Below, in pieces: positions 1 through 44,522 of a stretch of DNA of 44,522 nucleotides (position 1 is its first letter; every line of letters starts with the position of its first letter). The translations under genes were made by a program, and so were the position numbers. The DNA comes from a virus. The notes under the pieces were generated by a model. The model searched no databases. It had not been told where the DNA came from and was given only the letters and a program-made list of their open reading frames with translations. Where the stretch lies: the UHGV virus genome UHGV-0355499, one strand, 5' to 3'.

Positions 1-90
1 TCAGCGCCCTGCGCTGGCTCAGTACTGAACAGGCAAGCAGTGTTATTGAGAAACTGAAGAAGTGGCAGCGCAGAGCTGCGGGAGTCAAAC

Positions 91-477
91 ATGAGCGACC
101 TGAATCAGTTTCGAAGTAAAGGGCCGGAACTCCTGGTGGAGCTGGCACAGCATACCTCTGAGACCGTTCGCGAGATTATTGATATTGAGCCCGAAGTTGC
201 CGACCAGATTGGTCAGGCCGTCGCGAACCGCATGATGCAGGTCTGGGGCGGGCAAAACGTTTATTTTCCTATGGGGATGAGATGGAAGATAAGCCAGCGT
301 GACCGTGAAATCTATGAGGCGTTTAACGGACGTAACCACCACGAACTGTCCCGCAGATTCAGGGTTTCAGTTCCCTGGATTTACAACCTGGTGAAGCGCG
401 TAAGAAAGGAAGAAATCAGCCGGTTGCAGGGGCAGTTATTCGAAGACGATGATGAACCGGATGACAGCCGGGATTAA
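91..477 (+). CDS. Mor-family transcriptional activator
   Basis: 128-aa ORF; C-terminal half (GGQNVYFP...FNGRNHHELSRRFRVS...IYNLVKR) matches the conserved core of phage Mu Mor/C-type activators as recalled from memory. Confidence 0.7.
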   Translation: MSDLNQFRSKGPELLVELAQHTSETVREIIDIEPEVADQIGQAVANRMMQVWGGQNVYFPMGMRWKISQRDREIYEAFNGRNHHELSRRFRVSVPWIYNLVKRVRKEEISRLQGQLFEDDDEPDDSRD

Positions 478-488
478 TCAAAAGCGAG

Positions 489-731
489 GTGATAATGCGC
501 TATAAAACCCCCAACAGCGCCCCCCTGAAGAAGGCAGACCATGCAGATATGGCGATGGAAATTATCCGGCATTTTTTTGACGGTCTGACTTCTGCTGAGG
601 CGAGATATGTTCTCCGGGAATGCGACAGGCTGATTGACAACTCGCGCCTGCATATCGGGCCTGATGAAAATTGTGTTTTGTATTACGGGAAAGTTTTACG
701 TAACCCACCACCACCGCCACCAAAGTGTTAA
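489..731 (+). CDS. hypothetical small protein (poly-proline C-terminus)
   Basis: 80-aa ORF 11 nt after the Mor-like gene, followed by an intrinsic terminator; no domain recognised. Confidence 0.4.
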   Translation: MIMRYKTPNSAPLKKADHADMAMEIIRHFFDGLTSAEARYVLRECDRLIDNSRLHIGPDENCVLYYGKVLRNPPPPPPKC

Positions 732-757
732 CGAACGTCAATAAATTCCCGGTTTAT

Positions 758-793
758 GAAAAGCGCAATGGATAACCTGTTGCGCTTTTTTTA
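758..793 (+). terminator. rho-independent terminator
   Basis: Stem AGCGCAA / TTGCGCT with ~12-nt loop followed by a T-run, directly after ORF 489-731. Confidence 0.6.
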
Positions 794-825
794 TTCTGGC
801 AGAAAAACATATCACCGGAGGAAAT

Positions 826-1470
826 ATGTTTGATGCATCCTTGCTGAATCTGCCATGGGCAACGCTGGTGACGCTCACCAGTGGTTATATCGGCTATTTT
901 ATTGCGAACGTGGGGCTGAAGAACCATCACAAACCCATTGAGGTGACGTTTTCGACGCTGATTTTTGGTTTGCTGTCAATGATGGTTTACCAGGCTGTTA
1001 TGTGGGCAGGTCTGAATTCGTGGCTGGCGACACCTCCAACACTTCTTTGCGCTTTTGCATACGCTGCATTATGGAGAAAATATGGGCGTAAATGGATGTA
1101 CAGATTCCTCAGAAATAAGGATATATCATGGTCTGATGATACCCCCTCTGCCTGGATGCGTATGTTTGATCAACATGGATACTATATCAGCGAGGCGTAT
1201 GTCTATCTGAAGAATGGTACTGTGCTGCTTTCTGAAAATCCGGGGAAATTTGAAGGCCAGGCCAGCGGTTCTTTTGTGTTAGGAGTGGAAAAAGACATAG
1301 TGATGTATGTCACTCATGAAAAAAAACCGGGGCGCGATGAATGGATTGAAAAAGATGTTGAAAGTAAAAGCTGGGGAGCGATGGCAACCTATATCCCTGC
1401 AGATCAGATTGCCATGGTGAGGATCAGACGAACCAGAAATAAAGCTATTAGCGCACGGCAGAAAGATTAG
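826..1470 (+). CDS. hypothetical integral membrane protein (N-terminal TM helices plus soluble C-terminal domain)
   Basis: 214-aa ORF with GGAGGA RBS ~7 nt upstream; hydrophobic segments in first ~85 aa; no family recognised. Confidence 0.55.
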   Translation: MFDASLLNLPWATLVTLTSGYIGYFIANVGLKNHHKPIEVTFSTLIFGLLSMMVYQAVMWAGLNSWLATPPTLLCAFAYAALWRKYGRKWMYRFLRNKDISWSDDTPSAWMRMFDQHGYYISEAYVYLKNGTVLLSENPGKFEGQASGSFVLGVEKDIVMYVTHEKKPGRDEWIEKDVESKSWGAMATYIPADQIAMVRIRRTRNKAISARQKD

Positions 1471-2068
1471 TCCCGTGGTGGCGGTGCATCGTCATCAGAC
1501 TGAGAAGAACGGTTATCTGATGAATCGCCTGATGGTCCATAACGTTCTGACTCAAAGGTAACGCATCCTTTCATATCTTCGGAAAAGTCAGATGGGTTGC
1601 TATTTTTATCGGGCATGGGCAATATTTCTCCATTCACGGAACACGGATTAGAAATTTTACCACTCATATTCTCTGTTTTTTGTGAACTGCTACCGTTTCA
1701 CATACAGCAAAACAATTTCATAAAATTATTCGGTAGCATTCGTTTTAACCCACTCCCGTTCGAAATTATCTCACGAATCACCATTCATTTATCTCACGTC
1801 CCTTCACCTCATAGAAGGTTTTCATAATTACCTCGAATAATAAAAACTGCACTATTTGCACAATTTATTATTCGTTTTCACGCCGCTGAGTTCTATAAAA
1901 AAGAAAAAACCTCCGAGGCAGGGTTTTGTTATGGCTCGTTAAATCATCATCCAACTTTTTAGACTGAACGGTGATACTTGCAAATATTTGAAAATATGGG
2001 CTGGAACCCTATCTTATGATGTGCCTGGTAATTTATATTGTTGGGTCTTTATATCATGAGGAATCACT

Positions 2069-2302
2069 ATGGGTACGTTAGGCAACCAGCCGTGCAGAAG
2101 TCGTTATGAGTTCGATGATTTTAATTTAGCCAATCGAGCTGCGGCTCTTACTAAGTTAGCAAAAGAAACTGGTGTATCGGTGGATACCTTAATCAAACTT
2201 GAAATTGCTATGCAACTGAATCGGCTCAACTCCATCCTTATCGAAAACGGTGACAAGATGGACGAGAATCTGGCAGGTATTGGCGAGATACTGCAGAAGT
2301 GA
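2069..2302 (+). CDS. small putative HTH DNA-binding protein
   Basis: 77-aa ORF; segment LTKLAKETGVSVDTLIKLE resembles an XRE-type helix-turn-helix; GAGGAA RBS upstream; weak call. Confidence 0.35.
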   Translation: MGTLGNQPCRSRYEFDDFNLANRAAALTKLAKETGVSVDTLIKLEIAMQLNRLNSILIENGDKMDENLAGIGEILQK

Positions 2303-2611
2303 GAGTAGCCCCTCTTCTGAGGGGTTGCACATTTAAAATATTAAGGGCGGTCTTCTTCACGTACACAGTCACCTGGTCGAATCGTTCACGCATACTGAGT
2401 ACAAAAAATCTCAACGATAAGATCAGGTTAGACCTGTATTTTCCAGAAACATATAGACGCCTAAAAAAACACTAAACTCATGATTATCATGTATGTTTTT
2501 ACTGGAAACATTGAACCATCCACAATACAGCGTAAAAAGCAAGCAATTCACAAGATTTTAAAGTGATTTATCTGGAAGACTTTACTACTAACAGTTAATA
2601 TCGTACCAGAA

Positions 2612-2626
2612 GTGCAGAATTTGCAC
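2612..2626. promoter_or_regulatory. palindromic operator-like site GTGCA-N5-TGCAC upstream of the peptidase gene (similar 15-mer at ~1847-1861)
   Basis: GTGCAGAATTTGCAC ~75 nt upstream of ATG 2701; related CTGCACTATTTGCAC at ~1847-1861. Confidence 0.3.
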
Positions 2627-2700
2627 TTTTACAGGAATGTGGTACGGAACATGCTGTCTATATTTCAACCAATAATCGTAATGCAGTAACTGGAGGAGCT

Positions 2701-3189
2701 ATGGCTACCAACCCAAGAGAGCACGCCCGGCGAGTGCTGGACACGTTCTGGTGCGGGCGTGGTTTCCCTGTTGATCCAGCGAAAATTGCTCACGACATGG
2801 GATTAGATGTTTTTATTACCGATCTTCCTGGGAAAGTTTCTGGCGCACTGATTAAACAAAAAGATCAAGATCCAGCGATCTTTCTAAACAGTGATGACAA
2901 CAAAGTTCGTCAACGTTTTTCATGTGGGCATGAGTTGGGGCATTACATCGCCCGGCAAGCATCGCATAGCGATGAATATGAGTACGTTGATTTACGTGGC
3001 GAAACCGCAAGCGCCGGAACGCATCCTGATGAAATTTTTGCAAACAAGTTCGCAGCAGAACTTCTGATGCCGGTAGATGAGGTCAGAAAACTGCACGCTG
3101 ACGGTCAACCAAGTTATATAATGGCGCATTATTTTGGCGTATCTGACGATGCGATGACTTATCGTTTAAAGAACTTGAGGTTGGGGTAA
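2701..3189 (+). CDS. ImmA/IrrE-family (COG2856-type) zinc metallopeptidase
   Basis: 162-aa ORF with HEXXH motif (CGHELGHYI) and downstream conserved Glu (AAELLMP) typical of ImmA/IrrE peptidases; GGAGGAG RBS. Confidence 0.8.
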   Translation: MATNPREHARRVLDTFWCGRGFPVDPAKIAHDMGLDVFITDLPGKVSGALIKQKDQDPAIFLNSDDNKVRQRFSCGHELGHYIARQASHSDEYEYVDLRGETASAGTHPDEIFANKFAAELLMPVDEVRKLHADGQPSYIMAHYFGVSDDAMTYRLKNLRLG

Positions 3190-3198
3190 CGCTTTAAA

Positions 3199-3804
3199 AT
3201 GCCATCGGATGACGATTTTAACAGCCGTTTCAAACAGGAAGTAGCACGCAGACTGAAGGATTCCCTCAACCTACACCGTCAGTTAGCAGAAGAGGTTGAG
3301 CCGGAGGACGATGAAACTCCGGTTCAGTCTCCTGACGAAGCTTCACCTCAGCCAAAGGTTTCGCACGCCCCCAAAAAAACGGCTGTCCGTATTCGCGGAA
3401 TAGCCAGAAAAAGAGCTGCCGAAGCTCGCAAAATGGCTGTAGCTGCGTCTAGCAAAAGAATTCCAACTGCTACACCCTCTCAACAAGTCACCCGTACTGA
3501 GAGTAAAATCTTGACCGAGTTCACATCTGTGAAACAGGTGAATTCACTTGATACCGAGCATGAGCGCAAACAACTCAACAACAAAGATTTTGAAGCAGAA
3601 ATCGCTCTAAAAAAACGATACGGGAAATGGTTCCTGATTATCCTTGCTTTCCAACTTCTGATAATGAATGGTGTATTTATTGCCGACGGCGCAGGTAAGC
3701 TGGAATTTGAGGATTTAACACTACAGTTGTACATGGGCGGTACTTTGACAGAGGTATTCGGCCTCGTGCTGGTCGTGACAAAATACCTTTTTAAACGCAA
3801 GTAA
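3199..3804 (+). CDS. hypothetical protein with charged N-terminal region and C-terminal double transmembrane segment
   Basis: 201-aa ORF 10 nt downstream of the peptidase gene (likely co-transcribed); last ~60 aa strongly hydrophobic; its last ~72 nt are duplicated at ~7155-7226. Confidence 0.55.
   Translation: MPSDDDFNSRFKQEVARRLKDSLNLHRQLAEEVEPEDDETPVQSPDEASPQPKVSHAPKKTAVRIRGIARKRAAEARKMAVAASSKRIPTATPSQQVTRTESKILTEFTSVKQVNSLDTEHERKQLNNKDFEAEIALKKRYGKWFLIILAFQLLIMNGVFIADGAGKLEFEDLTLQLYMGGTLTEVFGLVLVVTKYLFKRK
3732..3803 (+). repeat. direct repeat copy 1 (3' end of ORF 3199-3804)
   Basis: ~72 bp, ~90% identical to 7155-7226 (ATGGGCGGTACTTTGACAGAGGTATTCGG...AAATACCTTTTTAA). Confidence 0.8.
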
Positions 3805-4266
3805 CTCTCTCGGTCCAACAGTCTTTCGAAGGCCCTGATCAAAGGGCCTTGATAAATTAGCAGTGCGTTGAAAACAGATAGTTATTCCCATCAGTTCCAA
3901 CGTAATACACATCAAAAAAATCACCATTCTTTTGCTCTAACGTCAACACCTACCCTTAAAAAAATAATTCTCCAAGAATGAGAAAGTTATTGTGTGTATT
4001 AGATAAGATATGAGCTGACACATCTATGGCGTGGAGCCAAATTTAATATGACAGTCCGCTCTGTGCCATAAGCGGACTGTCAATAAACAGATTCACTTGT
4101 AAATCTTGAAGCTATACATATTTACTTTCAATGATAAATAAAAGAACTATCCAAAAATCACTGAGAGCATATTTTAACTAACCCTCCGCTACTATTAACA
4201 TAAATTTCACCCAACCATAATTAAATTGATACATATAGCAACTTACCTTGATACGAATCATCTGGG

Positions 4267-4965
4267 TTATATTTTTCCATATTTTTTTCCGTCAAATCGA
4301 ATCATGCCAGGATCAAGAAAATTAATTAAATCGATTAACGCGTGCTGTATTCTGATTAGCCTTTCTTTATAAATTCCGATATCTCTTGTCATATTTATCA
4401 CTTCATTGTTTAAATCTAAAAAAAATGGCTCATTGATAAAGCAATTTTCCTTTGTGAAACTGCCGTAACCTATGCAATCAAATCCAGTATCTGTTGATAT
4501 CAGCATCTTTTCTGCAATAGCTCTCTGCTCTCCTATGAAAAACATAAAATACTGACCAAAGACGTCTGTTTGGATTAATGAGTTAATATTGTTCTGTAAT
4601 CTAATAAACTCCCTCATTTTTTTATTTTTTTCTAGGCTAAGGTATTGAATGTCTATGCGGGCAGCTTCTGTCCATGCAAAAAACTGGGAAAAAAGAAAAA
4701 CAGTATTGTTGATAACATAATCTTGTTGGCGCTTATTCCCATTATGATAAAACTCTTCAATGAACCCCAATTCTAATATATTATAAATACGGCTTTGTAA
4801 GTCTGAAGCTGAGCGAATTAACGGTTCAATATAGTACTGATGTTTTCTCCTTACATCCAGTGATTCATTGAGCTTGTTTATTCTATTCTGATTATAAGTA
4901 GATATAGCAATAGAGATTATAGCTATTGCACCACTAATAAAGCTTGAAATTAATGCCGTACCCAT
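4267..4965 (-). CDS. hypothetical membrane-anchored protein (single N-terminal TM helix), AT-rich cargo gene
   Basis: 232-aa ORF; N-terminal hydrophobic helix (LISSFISGAIAIISIAIS); compositionally distinct low-GC region; no family recognised. Confidence 0.5.
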   Translation of the reverse strand: MGTALISSFISGAIAIISIAISTYNQNRINKLNESLDVRRKHQYYIEPLIRSASDLQSRIYNILELGFIEEFYHNGNKRQQDYVINNTVFLFSQFFAWTEAARIDIQYLSLEKNKKMREFIRLQNNINSLIQTDVFGQYFMFFIGEQRAIAEKMLISTDTGFDCIGYGSFTKENCFINEPFFLDLNNEVINMTRDIGIYKERLIRIQHALIDLINFLDPGMIRFDGKKYGKI

Positions 4966-6152
4966 CTAAAAGTCCTTTGATTCTTGCTTGGTTAACAAAA
5001 TGACATAATTTTATTTAATGCCATAACAACTTAACAATATATCATAATATGATTATTATGGTGTAGCTTGTCGCATCTACGCTCCATTACAAACAGATGT
5101 AAGATATAACCTATATGTTTTAGCCAGCAAATTCGAAAGCATTCAAAGTAGTCTCATCGAACTCTCGAAACCCTATGTCTTCGGGTATAAAATATTTAAA
5201 TCCATTTGCATAATATCGACTCATGTTTATTATATTCTCCCCATTCACCATTAAGATTTGACATTATTTTCAACAATCGGTTATTGCAAGATTGAAATAT
5301 ATTTTTACTTGACACAATATTCCATGTAGCCCAGCGATTCGACTTACCCCCAACTATACGGACAATCTAAATTAAATCGATGATTTTTTGATACATTCTC
5401 CTCTCTCCATTACTTTATGTTTTTGTTCCCCAAAAATACCTTGCTCTCTAAAAAATAATTGTTCTTTAAGTTCAAAATCGAGATCTACATGAGCGTTAGA
5501 TACAAAGCTAATATGTTGAAATGTCTTTCCCCCCCCATAACGGCATTGTTATCTAAACTATGTTACACAAATATAATATTACCCTTTCAACGTAATCCAA
5601 GAATAAGATTAATGCCATTATATATATCATAAATATGATATTTTGTATATTTTTATCATTTAGCCTTGATTGTACTAGGTGTACTCTCAACGAAGTAGGG
5701 AAAGTCTGTTCCTCGCTCACAGCTGCCCTTCAGTAAGCGAAAAAATGCCTACTCGGTGCCATATACAGCCATTGTTATTAACAGCAGGGAATAATTCAAA
5801 ACTGAAATTAAATATCTACCTTTTACAGTAGAAATAGTTCCTCCAGGACACTATCCATTGCCGGGCACAATCACTCGGGGTATAACGATATAAAATATGT
5901 TCATGATAGTGCAGGTTCGTATATTAAGTTCAGCAGCGAAAACATGCCTTACAGGTTTCCGGTTTTGGGAGCGTCGTTACAGGATCCTGCGCATACCGTT
6001 CCCATCTGTTGAATTAAAGGTTTCACAGCCTTTGCCGATATCACCTTTTACCTTACCTGTGATGCGTTCAGTGCTCAGCGTTGTTTACTGTAGCTCTCGG
6101 GACTGATTACAGACCGCGTCTTAAAAACCAATCCTTACTCTAAAGGGAATTC

Positions 6153-7076
6153 ATGAGATTAAAATACTCAGTACTCTTACTCGCCATTGCCCTTACAGGC
6201 TGTGATAACAAAAAAGATGAGATCGGTTGTTCTTCGGAAATAACCCAGTCAGCTCTCATGGATTTATTAAAAAAATCTGCTTATGAAGGACTCTCTGAAC
6301 AGGTCGATAAATACCCTGATGTCACTAATCAGACCAAACGAAGCACACTGGACAAGATCAAACTAGCCATCTCTGAGATCTCCACAACATCAAGTGACAC
6401 GGGCAGCACAATGAAAACTTGTGAAGGGACCGTGACGATGACTCTATCTGCGAACGAGTACGTCCAGCTTTCAGATGCTTACAGAAAGAATTTTAATCGT
6501 AATCTCGATAAGCAAATGGAAAGCCTGTTTTTGGAGAACAACGCAAACGCCTTTTCAAAACGTATCACCTACACCGTGCAGGCGACCGACGATCAGAAAA
6601 ACGTTTTTGTAAAAACCTCTACTGATAATCCGATATCAGTGGGCGCCGCTTTACTGACATCGCTTTCCATTATCACCCCGATCGTTGAGCAGCAGAAAAT
6701 CCAGCAGGCTAAGGATGCCCAACAGAGTCAAATTGAAGCGGAACAACAGGTGCAACTCAGGGCGCAAGAACAGGCTAAGTATGAGGCGGAGAAGCAAATA
6801 GAGAGACAGGCACAACTTCAGCCGCAAAAAGCTGACAACCTTGATCAGTCCCGAATGGCATTTGCGAATGCCGACTCTGATTTGAGTACCGTCTGGAGCA
6901 AGTTAACCCCGGCGAAGAAAAAAGATTTGCTGCCTTCTCAGCGTCAGTGGATCAAAACTAAGGATGCTATGTGCGGTAAAGTTTCAATGCAGGGAACAGA
7001 TGCTGAAGTCAAGAAAATGGTCGACTGCCAGACGCAAATGACCCTTTCAAGAATCGCTTTCCTCAGAAACCAATAA
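6153..7076 (+). CDS. lipoprotein with Gln-rich coiled-coil linker and C-terminal DUF1311/LprI-like domain
   Basis: Signal peptide with lipobox LTGC; QQ-rich coiled coil; C-terminal pattern QRQW..KD..C...(14)...C....R as in LprI/DUF1311 proteins; hairpin terminator at ~7090-7123. Confidence 0.6.
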   Translation: MRLKYSVLLLAIALTGCDNKKDEIGCSSEITQSALMDLLKKSAYEGLSEQVDKYPDVTNQTKRSTLDKIKLAISEISTTSSDTGSTMKTCEGTVTMTLSANEYVQLSDAYRKNFNRNLDKQMESLFLENNANAFSKRITYTVQATDDQKNVFVKTSTDNPISVGAALLTSLSIITPIVEQQKIQQAKDAQQSQIEAEQQVQLRAQEQAKYEAEKQIERQAQLQPQKADNLDQSRMAFANADSDLSTVWSKLTPAKKKDLLPSQRQWIKTKDAMCGKVSMQGTDAEVKKMVDCQTQMTLSRIAFLRNQ

Positions 7077-7154
7077 CTGAAGTCTCCTTCAAGCTGGCGC
7101 CAGGTGTTAACCTGGTGCCAGCTTAGTCATCAAGTGCATATGTAACTGTTTTAT

Positions 7155-7226
7155 ATGGGCGGTACTTTGACAGAGGTATTCGGTCTCGTGCTGGTCGTGG
7201 TCAAATACCTTTTTAAGCGCAAATAG
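7155..7226 (+). repeat. direct repeat copy 2 (orphan duplicate of the 3' end of ORF 3199-3804)
   Basis: Matches 3732-3803 with ~7 mismatches, including the same stop context; no upstream ORF body. Confidence 0.8.
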
Positions 7227-7250
7227 AGTATTTCCGCCCCAAACAACCTG

Positions 7251-8069
7251 TCAAAATGCTGAATTAGCAACGGATATAGCCGACTTTTTCCCCATTACCA
7301 TCAATTTATCCAGTGTCATACTTCGCAGATTGTCGCTGTGGATCACCAGATACCCTGCCCGCTCAGCGATCTCTTTGAAAGCGTCAAAGGTCATCAGATG
7401 TTCGCCTTTGGCAACATGGCGCATCCCGGTCACTTTTCCATTTTTGATAGTGGTGATAAAAGAAAAATCTGGAATGGTTGGGTGATTTTCATCGAGTAGC
7501 AGGCAGTGGATGTATTCAATCGCCTCTAACATTTGCGTCTGTGACAGTTGTTCTATGTGAGAGACGGCGAAGCGTTGATGAATCATGGTGTAGGCATCGG
7601 GATACATCATGCCTTTCTTGCCGACCAGTATATTAACGGCATCACGCAAGGGAGTACGGTCATCGGTAGTTGTACTCCGCCTCTCTGGACGCTGGCTAAA
7701 ATAACAATCTTCCAGCTTTTCGAAAACTTCCCAGGCCTGTTCTGTTTCCAGCATTTTGGCATGGCGAGCTGCGCCGCGTTCTGTCCAGAGAATGAGGGAT
7801 CGGGTATGTTTAGCAACTGACTGACTATCTGTCAGTCTGTTTTTGAAGTCGCGTAATTCATTACCTTCCAGCTTAAAAAAATGCTTTCCTACGACAAATC
7901 TGGCGATGTTGCGCTTGAAGTTTTGCTGGATACCATTTACTTCCGTGCCATACAAACTGGCAAGCAATTCAGTAGTGATGACGGGAAGTTGGTTATGATG
8001 TAGCGGAGAAAGGGATTCCGCAGATATTTGGACTGTCATCGCAGTGGCCTCACTTAGTGTTTTTTTCAT
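7251..8069 (-). CDS. phage antirepressor (Ant-like)
   Basis: N-terminal region (LPVITTELLASLYGTEVNGIQQNFKRNIARFVVGKHFFKLEGNELRDFKN) resembles phage antirepressor N-terminal domains; ORF-track start at 8087 is TTG, first ATG at ~8069. Confidence 0.7.
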   Translation of the reverse strand: MKKTLSEATAMTVQISAESLSPLHHNQLPVITTELLASLYGTEVNGIQQNFKRNIARFVVGKHFFKLEGNELRDFKNRLTDSQSVAKHTRSLILWTERGAARHAKMLETEQAWEVFEKLEDCYFSQRPERRSTTTDDRTPLRDAVNILVGKKGMMYPDAYTMIHQRFAVSHIEQLSQTQMLEAIEYIHCLLLDENHPTIPDFSFITTIKNGKVTGMRHVAKGEHLMTFDAFKEIAERAGYLVIHSDNLRSMTLDKLMVMGKKSAISVANSAF

Positions 8070-8311
8070 CACCACCAGCGACGCCAATCATCTGGTGGTG
8101 AGCTGTGCAGGGTTGGCGTAACCGGCTAAGTGAACCCGGCGCTTCCACAGAAGCCCCCACACAGCCCACCATAATGCGAATGTGGCCGTGCCTAACACAT
8201 AAAAAAACCGCTAACGCGGCTATGCGTCACTTAGATATCCGGGACGCCAATCCCGGCAACCGATTTTGCGGCTGCGCGGAAACTATAGCCCCGGACTTTT
8301 TCTAAGTCAAT

Positions 8312-13124: not shown

Positions 13125-13221
13125 TGGACTCCTTGTGTCCGCGTCATCATTACAAACAATAACTGTAATTACAAATTATATTTGCAATGCTCCCTACAAT
13201 TAAACCTTGTATCCTTACGGT
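13125..13221. promoter_or_regulatory. divergent cro / cI promoter-operator region
   Basis: Intergenic region between divergent Cro-like and CI-like genes with repeated TTACAAA half-sites (ATTACAAACAATAACTGTAATTACAAATTATATTTGCAA). Confidence 0.4.
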
Positions 13222-13635
13222 ATGAACACAAAAACGAAAAACATGGCTTTTGCTAGCCGACTACAACGGATTCTAAAAGACTTAGGCTGGTCTCAATCTG
13301 AGTTAGCTCGCCATATTGGGGTTACGGCTCAATCAGTTCAGGCATGGTGTAATGGGGTAACTCCAAGAAAAGATAAATTAGACAAGCTAGCAAAAGTGAC
13401 CGGATACCCTGTTCATTTTTTCTTCATGAATGAAGGGGAATATTTGGATGAATCCACACTACACCCGGGTAATTACAATCAAGAACTAACCCCGCAAGAA
13501 CAGGCTCTACTGCAACTATTCAGAGGACTGCCTGAGAGCGAAAAAAATAAATTAATCAATGAGCTAAAAGAAAAAAGAGAGCACTTCGATCTACTGCTAA
13601 AAGAACTACTTGAAGCCAAAAACCAGACAAAATAG
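13222..13635 (+). CDS. CI-like XRE-family repressor (HTH only, no S24 peptidase domain)
   Basis: HTH LQRILKDLGWSQSELARHIGVTAQSVQAWCNG; ~140 aa without LexA-like C-terminal protease domain; start ambiguous (13207 TTG, 13222 or 13243 ATG, possibly leaderless). Confidence 0.7.
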   Translation: MNTKTKNMAFASRLQRILKDLGWSQSELARHIGVTAQSVQAWCNGVTPRKDKLDKLAKVTGYPVHFFFMNEGEYLDESTLHPGNYNQELTPQEQALLQLFRGLPESEKNKLINELKEKREHFDLLLKELLEAKNQTK

Positions 13636-43463: not shown

Positions 43464-43643
43464 TTACGCGTCAGGGGGTGTAATAGTATATCCAGCTATT
43501 TCTGCCAACTCGAGAAACGCCATCAGGCTGGCAATCCGCTCATCATCGGTCAGAACACGCACACCAACGATGTGTCCGTCCTTACGCTTGATAACAGCCC
43601 GGCATGTTTCCGGTAGTTCGCCTATAGATTCTTGAATATTCAT
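43464..43643 (-). CDS. small hypothetical protein under a LexA-box promoter
   Basis: 59-aa ORF from ATG ~43643 (ORF-track start 43664 is TTG); SOS box ~20 nt upstream. Confidence 0.4.
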   Translation of the reverse strand: MNIQESIGELPETCRAVIKRKDGHIVGVRVLTDDERIASLMAFLELAEIAGYTITPPDA

Positions 43644-43665
43644 GTCTTCCCCCCAATGCCACAAC

Positions 43666-43681
43666 CTGTATATTTATACAG
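43666..43681. promoter_or_regulatory. LexA box (SOS operator)
   Basis: CTGTATATTTATACAG = CTGT-N8-ACAG with AT-rich spacer, matching the enterobacterial LexA consensus. Confidence 0.65.
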
Positions 43682-43794: not shown

Positions 43795-44385
43795 TTATTT
43801 ATCACTCCTGTAAATTGGAATTAACCATTTTCTAATCGTCGACGCTGCAGGTGGGTCAGAGTATTTCGCCACAAAAATACCGGATATGTATTGCACGCCA
43901 CGCGATAATGGCGCTGTCGGGTTTTCAGTAAAAAAACGATCAGCCAGTTCAATGGCTTCGCTTTTTAATCTGTGCTGTGGTCGTCCTCCGCCCTTTGTTC
44001 CCAGGTATCGCGCCAGTTGTTTGAAACGGTAGGCGATGATTAACGGTCGCATCATCATATTGAAAAAATCGCGGGCATCGTTGTCAGCGCCTTGCGCTAT
44101 CAACAGTGCAAAAAACAGATACGGGATTATGTACACTTCAGGAGATATACGAACCCGTTCACAAGTTGGTGGAGCCAACTCAATAAGTAAGTCAGCCAGC
44201 GGATTCCCCTTTTCTCCACGTTTGTAATAGCGATACAGCGGCCCGATATCAAGTTCACTCACGTCGATTTCAGGATGCCCGGCAACGACTGTACGTATCT
44301 CTTCTGCCAGAGCGTCAAATATTGCCCCGGTCCGTTCAAGATAGAGCCTCCGGGTCGAACCGCGATCATCCAACGCCCGTAACAT
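43795..44385 (-). CDS. hypothetical phage protein
   Basis: 196-aa ORF upstream of the LexA-box gene; no domain recognised. Confidence 0.4.
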   Translation of the reverse strand: MLRALDDRGSTRRLYLERTGAIFDALAEEIRTVVAGHPEIDVSELDIGPLYRYYKRGEKGNPLADLLIELAPPTCERVRISPEVYIIPYLFFALLIAQGADNDARDFFNMMMRPLIIAYRFKQLARYLGTKGGGRPQHRLKSEAIELADRFFTENPTAPLSRGVQYISGIFVAKYSDPPAASTIRKWLIPIYRSDK

Positions 44386-44522
44386 ATCTAACCGGCTAAC
44401 GAAAGTTTCAGGCCAGTCCTCATTGATGCGCCGCGCGATAAATGCACTCTATCTTGTGCGATAAATGGCATCCACGCGGCGTTTCATTATTTGAAAAAGA
44501 ATTACATTTCAGGTTGCGTTAT

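What the first reader, a model, noticed from the sequence alone, without database searches (positions are those of the whole stretch)
2069..3804. ImmA/IrrE-type metallopeptidase paired with a small C-terminally membrane-anchored protein (candidate toxin-antitoxin/abortive-infection or stress-triggered switch)
An HEXXH metallopeptidase without a fused HTH (2701-3189) is followed 10 nt later by a 201-aa protein with a disordered charged N-terminus and two C-terminal TM helices; a small putative HTH gene lies upstream (2069-2302). Peptidase plus HTH pairs act as damage-responsive derepression switches (ImmR/ImmA, CapH/CapP), and COG2856 peptidases occur as antitoxin-type partners of toxins. Here the partner is a membrane protein, a plausible membrane-disrupting effector. 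A related palindrome (TGCAC-N5-TGCAC) sits upstream of both the HTH and peptidase units.
Basis: partly seen in the sequence, partly recalled or inferred. Interest (0 to 1): 0.65.

Follow-up and report, generated by a model that had tools for sequence, protein, structure and literature searches.

The report
Phage peptidase paired with membrane protein
A small zinc peptidase gene and the gene for a tiny two-helix membrane protein form a tightly linked pair that moves between temperate phages of many bacteria; the pair is real, widespread and functionally uncharacterised, but the neighbouring small "HTH" gene is not part of it.

Summary
All three ORFs exist at the stated coordinates. The peptidase (2701-3189) is a minimal, catalytically intact M78 (ImmA/IrrE) enzyme. 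The 201-aa protein (3199-3804) has a cytoplasmic tail and a C-terminal two-helix membrane hairpin.

The real unit is only this two-gene operon. In 21 of 21 related loci, from Escherichia to Desulfuromonas and a Rhodococcus MAG, the peptidase lies immediately upstream of the membrane-protein gene. The two proteins co-diverge (r=0.89). About 58 of 80 phage loci with a short M78 peptidase carry a small TM protein directly downstream.

The 77-aa gene is a narrow E. coli ORFan with no detectable HTH. It is absent from the other pair loci and occurs with different cargo elsewhere. The palindromes exist but are statistically weak and not conserved.

The pair sits in phage cargo hotspots, where it is allelic with GmrSD-like genes, lies in the P2 gpA-Q hotspot, or sits beside RM and TA genes. 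This suggests a conflict module in which the membrane protein replaces the HTH repressor as the peptidase's partner.

Function is unproven. Rousset et al. 2022 cloned a distantly related "Peptidase + TM" pair and did not list it among their validated defences. I rate it a new variant of a known kind, of moderate interest.

The parts
2701..3189 (+). Minimal M78 (ImmA/IrrE-type) zinc peptidase, 162 aa; HELGH at aa 77-81, third ligand E111
   Evidence: Pfam PF06114 at 7.7e-18. PADLOC capP at 2.4e-25, covering only positions 3-151 of the 242-position profile. PDB profile hits to CapP 7t5t (1.3e-9) and IrrE 3dte (1.5e-6). H77, E78, H81 and E111 are invariant in 9 distant orthologues.
3199..3804 (+). 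201-aa inner-membrane protein: N-terminal helix, hypervariable disordered linker, conserved juxtamembrane segment and a two-TM hairpin
   Evidence: AlphaFold2 model. Alignments A1, A2 and A7. The family has 659 clusters at 50% identity, with no Pfam, PADLOC or PDB match. The peptidase lies immediately upstream in 21 of 21 loci.
2692..2698 (+). Shine-Dalgarno GGAGGAG for the peptidase gene
   Evidence: Read from the sequence. GGAGGA is invariant in the alignment of five upstream regions.
2659..2664 (+). -10-like hexamer TATATT (inferred promoter). It aligns with the -10 of the TTGTCA/TTGACA-17-nt promoters of orthologous cassettes; the -35 here is degenerate.
   Evidence: Alignment A4. The consensus scan did not call it. 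Inference only.
2602..2647 (.). Nested inverted repeat, CGTACCA...TGGTACG enclosing GTGCA-GAATT-TGCAC, overlapping the -35 region. Possible operator or 5' hairpin. Specific to the E. coli-type cassette.
   Evidence: Fold at -18 kcal/mol, z=-3.3. Present with every E. coli-type cassette. Absent from L003, L004 and L019.
3826..3852 (+). Terminator-like GC hairpin after the membrane-protein gene
   Evidence: Fold at -15.5 kcal/mol, z=-1.0, so weak on its own. An IS1 inserts just beyond it in some genomes without touching the genes.
2069..2302 (+). 77-aa gene. It is a neighbour and is NOT part of the conserved module. It is a separate transcription unit with its own terminator.
   Evidence: Homologues only in E. 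coli-type phages, plus two at 53-55% identity. Absent from L002-L011. Present with different cargo in L023/L024. No HTH detected.
2305..2328 (+). Strong hairpin directly after the 77-aa gene; separates it from the peptidase operon
   Evidence: Fold at -19 kcal/mol, z=-4.3, with 0 of 200 shuffles as stable.
1834..1874 (+). 41-nt AT-rich hairpin followed by TTTT. The first 'palindrome' is its apex. Likely a terminator or boundary element rather than an operator.
   Evidence: Fold z=-7.1. Inverted repeat I2. Lies just inside the start of the block shared with ST131 prophages.

Best explanation
The functional unit is a two-gene operon (2701-3804). A minimal, catalytically intact ImmA/IrrE-type (M78) zinc peptidase is translationally coupled to a small inner-membrane protein. 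That protein has a cytoplasmic N-terminal tail, and its C-terminal two-helix hairpin is by far its most conserved part.

The operon is an autonomous, horizontally mobile cassette. Temperate phages carry it as a 'moron' in variable cargo hotspots, and it occasionally sits in chromosomal islets. Here it lies between the nin/Q and replication modules of an E. coli lambdoid phage, on the opposite strand.

Most likely it is an inter-element conflict module (phage exclusion, abortive infection or addiction). In this reading the membrane hairpin is the effector. Its conserved polar residues Q152, N157, T182, E185 and T194 suggest an oligomeric ion-conducting or depolarising assembly. The peptidase would control it by docking on and cutting the cytoplasmic tail. 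The membrane protein would thus occupy the place that the HTH repressor holds in ImmA-ImmR, IrrE-DdrO and CapP-CapH.

Because the hairpin is conserved and the tail is hypervariable, cleavage more probably releases or activates the hairpin than destroys it.

Shown: the anatomy, an intact catalytic motif, obligate adjacency, co-divergence, mobility, hotspot context and absence of an HTH partner.

Inferred: that the tail is the substrate, the direction of control, the trigger, and any phage-related phenotype.
For: Adjacency. The peptidase is immediately upstream, on the same strand, in 10 of 10 genome loci. These run from Escherichia, Leclercia, Buttiauxella, Thalassotalea, Gallibacterium and Microbulbifer to a Desulfuromonas MAG and a Rhodococcus MAG. 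The same holds in 11 of 11 viral loci with a full-length membrane gene. Gaps range from -16 to +12 nt.

Co-divergence. Pairwise identities of the peptidases and the hairpins correlate at r=0.89, with 0 of 2000 Mantel permutations reaching that value.

Generality. About 58 of 80 phage loci with a short M78 peptidase have a small ORF with 1-3 predicted TM segments directly downstream. Of these, 29 belong to this family and the rest have the same layout. Examples include Mycobacterium phage Che9c gp32/gp33 and a P2-like phage.

Catalysis. The HExxH motif and E111 are invariant.

No HTH partner. Only 1 of 47 upstream neighbours is an HTH protein.

Membrane family. There are 659 clusters at 50% identity. 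All members are small, and the match is always at the C-terminal hairpin. L137, Q152, L153, T182, E185, L197 and F198 are invariant or nearly so.

Conflict context. GmrSD_N/NsnA/PD-T4-2_A-like cargo (4.6e-41) replaces the pair at the same lambdoid hotspot and leaves a 28-aa remnant of the membrane gene. In L040 the pair lies directly after P2 gpA, which is the Rousset hotspot. In L009 it lies next to a Type IIG RM gene. PIN, ParE and HicAB genes are neighbours in L005, L006 and Che9c.

Precedent for docking. CapP docks a substrate helix on a hydrophobic surface of the peptidase domain and cuts F82/R83 (PMC13228613). The corresponding strands (VSGALIK, PxIxL) are conserved here. A nearly invariant L137-K/R138 sits just before TM1.
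Against: No experiment bears on this cassette.

A distantly related 'Peptidase + TM' pair from the P2 hotspot (pFR104) was cloned and tested against eight phages. Its peptidase is 36.9% identical and its membrane partner belongs to a different family. It is not among the three validated P2 systems (PMC9122126).

Neither protein matches any PADLOC model as a system.

A complex could not be modelled, so proteolysis of the tail is unsupported by structure.

The L-K/R motif before TM1 may simply reflect the positive-inside rule.

The trigger is unknown. The GAF domain and Cys-switch that confer ssDNA sensing on CapP and IrrE are absent.

Natural variants are uninformative. One allele carries ATG>ATA at the membrane-gene start with an intact peptidase (L112/L113). 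The other apparent frameshifts may be sequencing errors: those in L116 lie in homopolymer runs, and L114 was not examined at the DNA level.
Confidence: 0.45

Rival explanations
1. Classical addiction or toxin-antitoxin logic with the opposite direction of control. The membrane protein is a constitutive toxin. The upstream-encoded peptidase is an enzymatic antitoxin that continuously clips or neutralises it. Loss of the prophage, or phage-induced shut-off, lets the toxin accumulate.
For: The gene order (neutraliser first), overlapping or coupled ORFs, small size and patchy mobile distribution are typical of type II TA pairs. A full-length membrane gene was never found without the peptidase (21 of 21). 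One allele has lost the membrane gene's start codon while the peptidase is intact. TA genes are frequent neighbours.
Against: Cutting a cytoplasmic tail would leave the highly conserved hairpin in the membrane, so it is unclear how that would detoxify it. The tail is hypervariable in length, 31-129 aa, which is odd for the functional part of a toxin. The related pFR104 pair was clonable under its native promoter without comment on toxicity.
Confidence: 0.2
2. The peptidase is an ImmA-type anti-repressor that cleaves an XRE-type repressor encoded elsewhere, for example the phage's own short CI at 13207-13635. The membrane protein tethers or gates it, linking membrane or envelope perturbation to prophage induction.
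For: The phage CI is HTH_3 only, 142 aa, with no S24 autocleavage domain. That is the ImmR/DdrO/CapH architecture. The peptidase has ImmA's minimal size. All characterised family members cleave XRE repressors (PMC13228613; PMC2701414).
Against: The cassette moves between unrelated phage types (lambdoid, P2-like, Mu-like, actinophage). It also occurs in islets with no phage genes within 6 kb (L005, L006, L009). It is about 10 kb from the CI here, whereas ImmA genes sit next to their substrate gene. This phage already has two other induction devices: a perfect LexA box in front of a small ORF (43666-43681) and a C4 RNA plus ORF6N antirepressor. Only 1 of 47 pair loci has an adjacent HTH gene.
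Confidence: 0.13
3. One reading: a three-part switch in which the 77-aa protein is a DNA-binding repressor acting at the shared palindromes and is cleaved by the peptidase, de-repressing a membrane toxin after DNA damage.
For: The 77-aa protein contains a GVSVDTLIK stretch faintly resembling a MerR-type HTH (E=0.13). Non-significant Foldseek hits include RHH repressors CopG and Arc. Similar 14-mers lie upstream of both units. The inverted repeat overlaps the peptidase promoter's -35 region.
Against: No significant HTH or RHH match was found by sequence or fold. The gene is absent from all other pair loci, including E. whittamii L002 with a 91%-identical membrane protein. It is found with unrelated cargo in L023/L024. 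The first site is missing in some loci that keep the 77-aa gene. The motif statistics are weak. A strong terminator separates the units. There is no LexA box, GAF domain or Cys-switch.
Confidence: 0.05
4. The peptidase is the effector, in the manner of the Lit protease of e14. It would cleave an essential host or phage protein on infection, and the membrane protein would be its anchor, inhibitor or sensor.
For: Lit is a prophage-encoded, membrane-associated zinc metalloprotease that causes phage exclusion (own knowledge; references listed). COG2856 was originally predicted to be a 'toxin' (PMC2701414). One source names an orthologue 'toxin'.
Against: Invariant polar residues inside both TM helices across 130 representatives argue for more than an anchor. 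No M78 member is known to act on a non-repressor target.
Confidence: 0.1
5. It serves the phage's own lytic cycle. The hairpin would be a holin, antiholin or pinholin-like lysis-timing factor processed by the peptidase.
For: The protein is small with two TM helices and an N-in/C-in topology. In some phages the pair sits next to lysis genes: after Rz in L019, and between Mor and the endolysin in the Mu-like L010/L022. A Mor-family activator lies 2.2 kb upstream in this window.
Against: In this window the pair is far from the lysis cassette (about 40.5-41.8 kb by correspondence with the holin and lysin genes annotated in L001) and on the opposite strand. It has its own terminator-bounded unit. 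The pair occurs outside phages (L005, L006, L009). Most loci are not next to lysis genes.
Confidence: 0.07

Closest known systems
ImmA-ImmR (ICEBs1, phage phi105-type anti-repressor protease)
   Same: A stand-alone M78 peptidase of about 160-170 aa with HExxH plus a downstream Glu. It is carried by temperate or mobile elements and works with one dedicated partner encoded next to it.
   Different: The partner here is a two-TM membrane protein encoded downstream, not an XRE-type HTH repressor encoded upstream. No integrase or repressor operon context. No known trigger.
CapP-CapH (CBASS and other immune operon regulators) and IrrE/PprI-DdrO
   Same: The best sequence and solved-structure relatives of the peptidase domain are CapP (PADLOC 2.4e-25; 7t5t, 1.3e-9) and IrrE (3dte). 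The strands that form CapP's substrate-docking surface and the loop corresponding to the switch loop are conserved.
   Different: The central-HTH/GAF half of those proteins is missing (162 aa against about 290). There is no cysteine in the switch loop, no HTH substrate and no adjacent immune operon. ssDNA sensing as described for CapP and IrrE cannot apply.
'Peptidase + TM' candidate of the P2 gpA-Q hotspot (pFR104; Rousset et al. 2022, PMC9122126)
   Same: Same architecture: a short Peptidase_M78 followed by a small TM protein, carried in a phage defence hotspot in E. coli. A family member of the present pair also sits right after P2 gpA (L040).
   Different: The peptidase is only 36.9% identical. 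The membrane partner belongs to a different family, with a long inter-TM loop and a C-terminal tail, and the family HMM does not detect the partner of this type in L090. pFR104 was tested and is not among the validated systems. The present family has not been tested.
RosmerTA (RmrT/RmrA) and PD-lambda-2
   Same: Toxin-antitoxin-like anti-phage systems that contain an M78 peptidase domain.
   Different: In those systems the peptidase is fused to an Xre HTH (RmrA, 357-400-position profiles). The window protein matches only the peptidase part (5.8e-12). The partner matches no RmrT model.
Protease-activated membrane effectors (bacterial gasdermin with its associated protease); Lit protease of e14
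   Same: Mechanistic analogy only. A protease gates a membrane-damaging protein by removing an inhibitory segment (gasdermin). Alternatively, a prophage zinc protease at the membrane executes phage exclusion (Lit).
   Different: No sequence or fold relationship. The gasdermin pore former is a large beta-rich protein released from the cytoplasm. Lit is a single protein of peptidase family U49 that cuts EF-Tu.

Membership tests
Peptidase_M78 / ImmA-IrrE family (the 162-aa protein) | Profile match above the curated threshold | tested here: met
   PF06114 at 64.9 bits against a cutoff of 22, E=7.7e-18, covering 3-123 of 123 profile positions.
Peptidase_M78 / ImmA-IrrE family (the 162-aa protein) | HExxH zinc motif plus a downstream Glu ligand in ExxAN | tested here: met
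   H77, E78, H81 and E111 (EIFAN) are invariant in 9 orthologues from distant taxa.
ImmA-ImmR type anti-repressor module | XRE-family HTH repressor (the substrate) encoded adjacent to the peptidase | tested here: not met
   Only 1 of 47 upstream neighbours has HTH_3. The 77-aa neighbour has no HTH hit and is not conserved with the pair.
ImmA-ImmR type anti-repressor module | Site-specific cleavage of the repressor | not testable with these tools
   Needs biochemistry.
CapH-CapP | CapP architecture: peptidase, central HTH and C-terminal GAF domain forming the ssDNA groove | tested here: not met
   The protein is 162 aa. The PADLOC capP match covers profile positions 3-151 of 242. The PDB match to the 291-aa CapP covers only its residues 65-175. 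Architecture as described in PMC13228613.
CapH-CapP | Cysteine-switch loop; CapH HTH partner; adjacent regulated immune operon | tested here: not met
   There is no Cys between H81 and E111 in any orthologue. No HTH partner. The downstream gene is the 2TM protein, followed by a terminator-like hairpin.
RosmerTA | RmrA is an Xre HTH fused to an M78 peptidase, and is paired with an RmrT toxin | tested here: not met
   RmrA models match only residues about 48-160 of the protein, against the C-terminal half of 357-400-position profiles. The 201-aa protein and 130 family representatives hit no RmrT model.
Type II-like toxin-antitoxin pair | Two small co-directional, coupled genes with a patchy distribution on mobile elements | tested here: met
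   Gaps of -16 to +12 nt. Found in phages of several types and in chromosomal islets.
Type II-like toxin-antitoxin pair | One product is toxic and the other neutralises it | not testable with these tools
   Natural variants are inconclusive.
Known or candidate anti-phage systems (PADLOC-DB v2.0.0) | Both proteins match the models of one catalogued system | tested here: not met
   The membrane protein has no relevant hit. Of 130 representatives, only three have noise-level TM-effector hits, all with E>0.005.
'Peptidase + TM' P2-hotspot candidate (Rousset 2022) | A short Peptidase_M78 gene followed by a small TM-protein gene in a phage hotspot | tested here: met
   The architecture is shared. 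The pFR104 protein sequences are identical or near-identical to those translated from L109. Family member L040 lies directly after gpA.
'Peptidase + TM' P2-hotspot candidate (Rousset 2022) | Homology of the membrane partner | tested here: not met
   The partner of this type in L090 is not detected by the family HMM at 1e-3. tblastn of the 201-aa protein finds nothing in phage records that include this P2-like phage. The partner also has a different layout. The peptidase is 36.9% identical.
Class II holin / pinholin | A small two-TM protein encoded in the lysis cassette that triggers lysis | tested here: inconclusive
   A two-TM hairpin is present. It is not in the lysis cassette here and is next to lysis genes only in some loci. 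Function is not testable.

The most novel reading that the evidence does not exclude
An ImmA/IrrE-family peptidase whose dedicated substrate is not a repressor but a membrane protein. This would be a protease-gated, pinholin-like effector. On an infection or stress cue, the minimal peptidase would cut the cytoplasmic tail, possibly at the near-invariant L137-K/R138 just before TM1. That would free a highly conserved two-helix hairpin to oligomerise and depolarise the cell. This would define a widespread, phage-borne exclusion or abortive-infection module, with hundreds of sequence clusters from Proteobacteria to Actinobacteria. It would also give a new output branch for the ImmA/IrrE/CapP signalling family.
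Probability: 0.25. Interest if true: 0.75.

Novelty: new variant of a known kind. Interest (0 to 1): 0.55.

Why it matters
Characterised M78 (ImmA/IrrE/CapP) peptidases work by cutting an HTH repressor. Here the same enzyme is locked, across phyla, to a small membrane protein instead. If the membrane protein is the substrate or effector, a well-known transcriptional switch has been rewired into a direct post-translational trigger at the membrane.

The module is common in temperate phages, and about 8% of complete E. coli genomes carry it, mostly the ST131 lineage. It occupies the same hotspots as validated defence genes. Yet it is absent from Pfam (membrane partner) and from the defence catalogues searched.

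It would also give a minimal, two-protein model for an unanswered question: how stand-alone ImmA-type peptidases, which lack a GAF domain, are activated.

If it has no conflict function, the strict pairing still needs an explanation.

Tried and rejected
1. Modelling a peptidase-membrane protein complex. There is therefore no structural test of docking or cleavage.

2. HTH test of the 77-aa protein. Pfam, NCBIfam, a PDB sequence search and AlphaFold2 plus Foldseek gave nothing significant. A ribbon-helix-helix reading, suggested by the G-x-S turn and weak CopG/Arc hits, is not supported statistically.

3. Shared operator. The motif count, a derived 14-mer search (circular by construction), conservation in orthologues and distribution in loci are all weak.

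4. The promoter and terminator consensus scan was not enriched and missed the obvious hairpins.

5. An Rfam scan of 1-8200 found nothing in the locus.

6. The membrane family has no hit in Pfam, PADLOC or the PDB. tblastn against deposited phages also found none.

7. Natural knock-outs as a toxicity test. L111 and L116 look like homopolymer sequencing errors. L114 has a frameshift of uncertain reliability. Only L112/L113 (ATG>ATA in the membrane gene) looks reliable. This is too few to use.

8. SOS control. The only LexA box in the window is far from the operon.

9. Literature searches by accession, by M78, COG2856 or ImmA with membrane or anti-phage terms, and in the DefensePredictor paper found no characterisation. 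The only mention is the untitled 'Peptidase + TM' candidate in Rousset 2022.

10. I did not run a fold search on the 201-aa model, because its pTM of 0.28 would give meaningless matches.
Full report
**What is in the sequence.** ORFs lie at 2069-2302 (77 aa), 2701-3189 (162 aa) and 3199-3804 (201 aa), all on the + strand. RefSeq annotates all three in E. coli prophages as WP_000536919.1, WP_000224749.1 (ImmA/IrrE family metallo-endopeptidase) and WP_001138663.1.

The 162-aa protein matches Pfam Peptidase_M78 at 7.7e-18, over the whole profile. It carries H77-E78-L-G-H81 and the third zinc ligand E111 in EIFAN. A strong Shine-Dalgarno (GGAGGAG, 2692-2698) precedes it. Only 9 nt separate its stop codon from the next ATG.

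The AlphaFold2 model of the 201-aa protein (20-sequence alignment, mean pLDDT 62) has four features. There is an N-terminal helix (4-32) and a low-confidence stretch (34-118). A long helix (119-164) contains the first hydrophobic segment, and a second helix (172-199) packs back on it as a hairpin. The basic flanks KKRYGK and KRK, together with an acidic 7-10-residue loop, fit an N-in/C-in topology. That topology is my inference from the sequence.

The descriptive core of the finding is therefore correct.

**The window and the position of the locus.** The window is a temperate E. coli phage genome. It has a Q antiterminator, nin genes, a DnaB-type replication module, a short HTH-only CI, an integrase followed directly by tail genes, and P2-like tail and lambda-like head genes.

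The locus lies between the nin/Q side and the replication genes, on the opposite strand. It sits in a stretch of independently terminated accessory cassettes:
- a Mor activator with a 214-aa multi-TM protein,
- the 77-aa gene,
- the peptidase pair,
- a 232-aa protein on the - strand,
- an LprI-like lipoprotein,
- a C4-RNA/ORF6N antirepressor unit.

The pair region is present in 431 of 5,426 complete E. coli genomes, and 410 of these are at least 99% identical. Named strains include JJ1886 and O25b:H4-ST131 isolates, so these copies are largely one lineage and not independent observations.

**The unit is a two-gene cassette.** A word-indexed search found homologues of the 201-aa protein only in Enterobacterales, with lengths of 123-239 aa. 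The alignment shows four regions: a conserved N-terminal helix, a linker that varies from almost nothing to about 120 residues, a conserved juxtamembrane segment, and an almost invariant second TM helix, LTLQLYMGGTLTEVFGLVLVVTKYLFKRK.

Scanning one genome per species returned ten loci. They came from Escherichia whittamii, Leclercia, Buttiauxella, Thalassotalea, Gallibacterium, Microbulbifer, two unclassified MAGs, a Desulfuromonas MAG and a Rhodococcus MAG. In all ten, a homologue of the window peptidase (phmmer 1e-34 to 1e-113) lies immediately upstream on the same strand, often overlapping the start of the membrane gene.

A viral-contig scan gave eleven more loci with a full-length membrane gene, and all eleven have the peptidase upstream.

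Across 28 pairs, the pairwise identities of the peptidases and of the C-terminal 95 residues of the partners correlate at r=0.89. None of 2000 Mantel permutations reached that value. The two genes have therefore been inherited as a unit without partner swapping.

An exhaustive profile search of 1.84 billion representatives found 659 clusters at 50% identity at E<=1e-3, of which 182 are at <=1e-10. All members are small, and the match always lies at the C-terminal hairpin. In 130 representatives, L137, Q152, L153, T182, E185, L197 and F198 are invariant or nearly so. None of these representatives has a real Pfam, PADLOC or PDB match.

**The pairing is broader than this family.** I anchored a second scan on the peptidase, which returned 80 viral loci with short M78 proteins (most 157-211 aa). 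About 58 of them have a small ORF of 64-234 aa (most above 100 aa) with 1-3 predicted TM segments starting within a few bases of the peptidase stop codon. The family HMM recognises 29 of these. The others belong to different families with the same layout: an acidic or disordered N-terminal tail, two TM helices, and sometimes a C-terminal amphipathic tail.

Deposited examples are Mycobacterium phage Che9c gp32 (metalloprotease) and gp33, next to a HicAB pair. Another is a P2-like phage with the pair after gene A. Related Gordonia phages also carry a peptidase of this kind, annotated as metalloprotease; I did not check the gene downstream of it.

**The 77-aa gene is not part of the unit.** It has no Pfam, NCBIfam or PADLOC match. 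With a permissive threshold, the best Pfam hit is MerR at E=0.13, over 14 residues.

Its homologues are near-identical E. coli sequences plus two at 53-55% identity. The alignment shows protein-level conservation, so it is a real gene.

AlphaFold2 (pLDDT 82) gives two helices, 17-34 and 38-76. This is a helical hairpin rather than a compact three-helix HTH domain. Foldseek against the PDB gives nothing below E=5. The appearance of CopG and Arc among these weak hits is not evidence.

The gene has no homologue in any of the ten genome loci, not even in E. whittamii. In L023/L024 it is present (4.6e-47) while the peptidase pair is replaced by other cargo. A hairpin of -19 kcal/mol (z=-4.3) directly follows it.

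Among 47 non-redundant pair loci, the nearest upstream gene is an HTH protein only once. The others include integrases, a Mu portal, gpA, Mor, an amidase, sucD and so on.

**The palindromes.** They are TGCAC-TATT-TGCAC at 1848-1861 and TGCAG-AATT-TGCAC at 2613-2626.

TGCA-N5-TGCA occurs four times in the window against 1.3 expected, and 6 of 100 shuffles reach four. The 17-nt similarity is one of eleven comparable two-copy repeats in this kilobase.

Each site is the tip of a longer hairpin. The first, 1834-1874, has z=-7.1 and is followed by UUUU, so it looks like a terminator or boundary element. The second, 2602-2647, has z=-3.3.

In Leclercia, Buttiauxella and a viral orthologue, the peptidase gene is preceded by a recognisable TTGTCA/TTGACA -35 hexamer, a 17-nt spacer and a -10-like hexamer (best in Leclercia, CATAAT). 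In the window the aligned -10 is TATATT (2659-2664), but the -35 is degenerate and overlapped by the inverted repeat. Local regulation of the E. coli-type cassette by some DNA-binding protein is therefore possible. It is not a conserved feature of the module, and nothing links it to the 77-aa protein. The first site is missing from some loci that keep the 77-aa gene.

**What the peptidase is and is not.** Its closest catalogued relative is CapP (PADLOC 2.4e-25), but the match covers only profile positions 3-151 of 242. Against solved structures, the profile hits CapP 7t5t (1.3e-9) and IrrE 3dte (1.5e-6), again only in their peptidase halves.

According to Calloji et al. 2026 (PMC13228613), CapP and IrrE sense ssDNA in a groove between the peptidase and a C-terminal GAF domain. 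In CapP a cysteine-switch loop occludes the zinc. CapH docks a helix on a hydrophobic surface of the peptidase domain and is cut at F82/R83.

The window protein has no GAF domain and no cysteine between H81 and E111. It does keep the strands that build the docking surface (VSGALIK, PxIxL). It also keeps a conserved loop, YE(Y/F)VDLRG with D97 and R99 invariant, at the switch-loop position.

In size it resembles ImmA. RmrA (RosmerTA) models match only through the peptidase part, and the partner matches no RmrT model.

**Context.** At the same lambdoid hotspot, L023/L024 carry a DUF262/GmrSD_N protein that matches PADLOC NsnA (4.6e-41) and PD-T4-2_A (1.8e-19). A 28-aa remnant of the 3' end of the membrane gene is left behind there. 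Remnants also occur in L025-L027 and in strain E24377A.

In other loci:
- L040: the pair follows P2 gpA, the gpA-Q hotspot of Rousset et al.
- L009: it is next to an MmeI-type Type IIG restriction-modification gene (PADLOC E=0).
- L005 and L006: it lies in islets with PIN and ParE toxins and no phage genes nearby.
- L018 and L020: it abuts an integrase.
- L010/L022: it lies between Mor and the endolysin of a Mu-like phage.

This is the distribution expected of a self-contained accessory or conflict cassette.

**What is already known.** Full-text searches by accession and by topic found no characterisation.

Makarova et al. 2009 (PMC2701414) describe COG2856 only with Xre partners.

The one direct precedent is in Rousset et al. 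2022 (PMC9122126). Their hotspot table lists many 'Peptidase_M78 + hypothetical' arrangements. Their plasmid table lists pFR104 'Peptidase + TM' from E. coli TA280. Its peptidase sequence is identical to the one I found in the P2-like phage record, 36.9% identical to the window peptidase, and its TM partner matches that record's apart from two extra residues.

They cloned eight P2-hotspot systems. They report activity for three: DUF4238, three hypothetical proteins, and DprA-PRTase. By omission, then, the Peptidase + TM pair showed no defence against their eight phages. This counts against a broad defence role. It is limited, though, by the small panel, the use of one host, and the different membrane-partner family.

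**Mechanism.** I consider the following settled: a conserved, mobile, two-gene operon of an active M78 peptidase and a two-TM membrane protein, with no HTH partner.

The best-supported mechanism is that the membrane protein has replaced the repressor as the peptidase's dedicated partner. The peptidase would act on its cytoplasmic tail. The conserved hairpin would be the effector; its membrane-embedded Gln, Asn, Thr and Glu suggest oligomerisation or ion conduction. Because the hairpin is conserved and the tail is hypervariable, I favour activation by cleavage over inactivation. These steps are inference. My confidence in the whole statement is 0.45.

Five rivals remain:
- an enzymatic-antitoxin version (0.2);
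- an ImmA-like anti-repressor tethered to the membrane and acting on the phage's HTH-only CI (0.13). This is disfavoured by the cassette's presence in unrelated phages and in phage-free islets. It is also disfavoured because this phage already has a LexA-box-controlled small gene and a C4/Ant unit;
- a Lit-like model in which the peptidase is the effector (0.1);
- a lysis-timing role (0.07);

**Verdict.** The finding should be redrawn as the two-gene operon 2701-3804 with its local control region.

It is a new variant of a known kind: an ImmA/IrrE-type peptidase module with a membrane partner. Its architecture has been noticed once in the literature as an untested-positive candidate, but it is otherwise uncharacterised. 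Interest is moderate (0.55). It would be high if the membrane protein proves to be the peptidase's substrate.

Noticed in passing
window 8091-8176 (-), next to 7251-8087 (-): A C4 antisense RNA (Rfam RF01695, 75 bits against a gathering score of 45) lies directly upstream of the ORF6N-domain antirepressor gene. This is a P1 immI-like antirepressor control unit inside a lambdoid-type phage.
   Followed up: partly
window 43666-43681, with ORF 43464-43664 (-): A perfect LexA box, CTGTATATTTATACAG, is the only one in the window. It sits immediately upstream of a small ORF of 59-66 aa on the - strand. The phage CI (13207-13635) is HTH_3 only, with no S24 domain, so this may be an SOS-controlled small antirepressor.
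   Followed up: partly
window 91-477 (+) and 826-1470 (+): A Mor-family transcription activator (Pfam 5.2e-41) sits in a phage that also has a Q antiterminator. It is followed by a 214-aa multi-TM protein (weak DUF6338 match, phrog_12870). Both are absent from the otherwise collinear ST131 prophage, so they look like a separate inserted cassette. A Mor gene also lies directly upstream of the peptidase pair in the Mu-like loci L010/L022.
   Followed up: partly
window 4267-4965 (-): A 232-aa protein with an N-terminal TM segment lies convergent with the pair. It matches phrog_5606 (unknown function) and has a weak PADLOC hit to the DRT-associated RTasTM model (1.8e-5). It may be a single-gene accessory or defence candidate.
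   Followed up: no
L023/L024 5001-5084; L025-L027; E. coli E24377A (H74): Remnants of 26-28 aa from the 3' end of the membrane-protein gene (residues 174/176-201, 77-89% identical) persist in other E. coli prophages in which the pair has been replaced, in L023/L024 by GmrSD_N/NsnA-like cargo. These are footprints of cassette exchange at this hotspot.
   Followed up: partly
window 1834-1874: A 41-nt AT-rich perfect-stem hairpin (z=-7.1) is followed by TTTT. It lies just inside the left end of the block shared with ST131 prophages (the shared block starts at about 1807). It is probably a terminator or recombination boundary.
   Followed up: partly
L112/L113 (E. whittamii-like allele): The start codon of the membrane-protein gene is ATA instead of ATG in two independent assemblies, while the peptidase gene is intact. 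The gene caller therefore reports a 123-aa product from an internal Met.
   Followed up: partly
window 6153-7076 (+): A 307-aa lipoprotein with a C-terminal LprI (lysozyme-inhibitor) domain (4.1e-07) is conserved as the right-hand neighbour of the variable region in several related prophages.
   Followed up: no
window ends (43795-44522 and 1-90): The genes at the two ends of the window are neighbours in related prophages. The 196-aa ORF on the - strand corresponds to the 213/222-aa gene that abuts the 77-aa gene region elsewhere. The integrase is followed directly by tail genes. The window therefore looks like a circularly closed phage genome cut at an arbitrary point.
   Followed up: no
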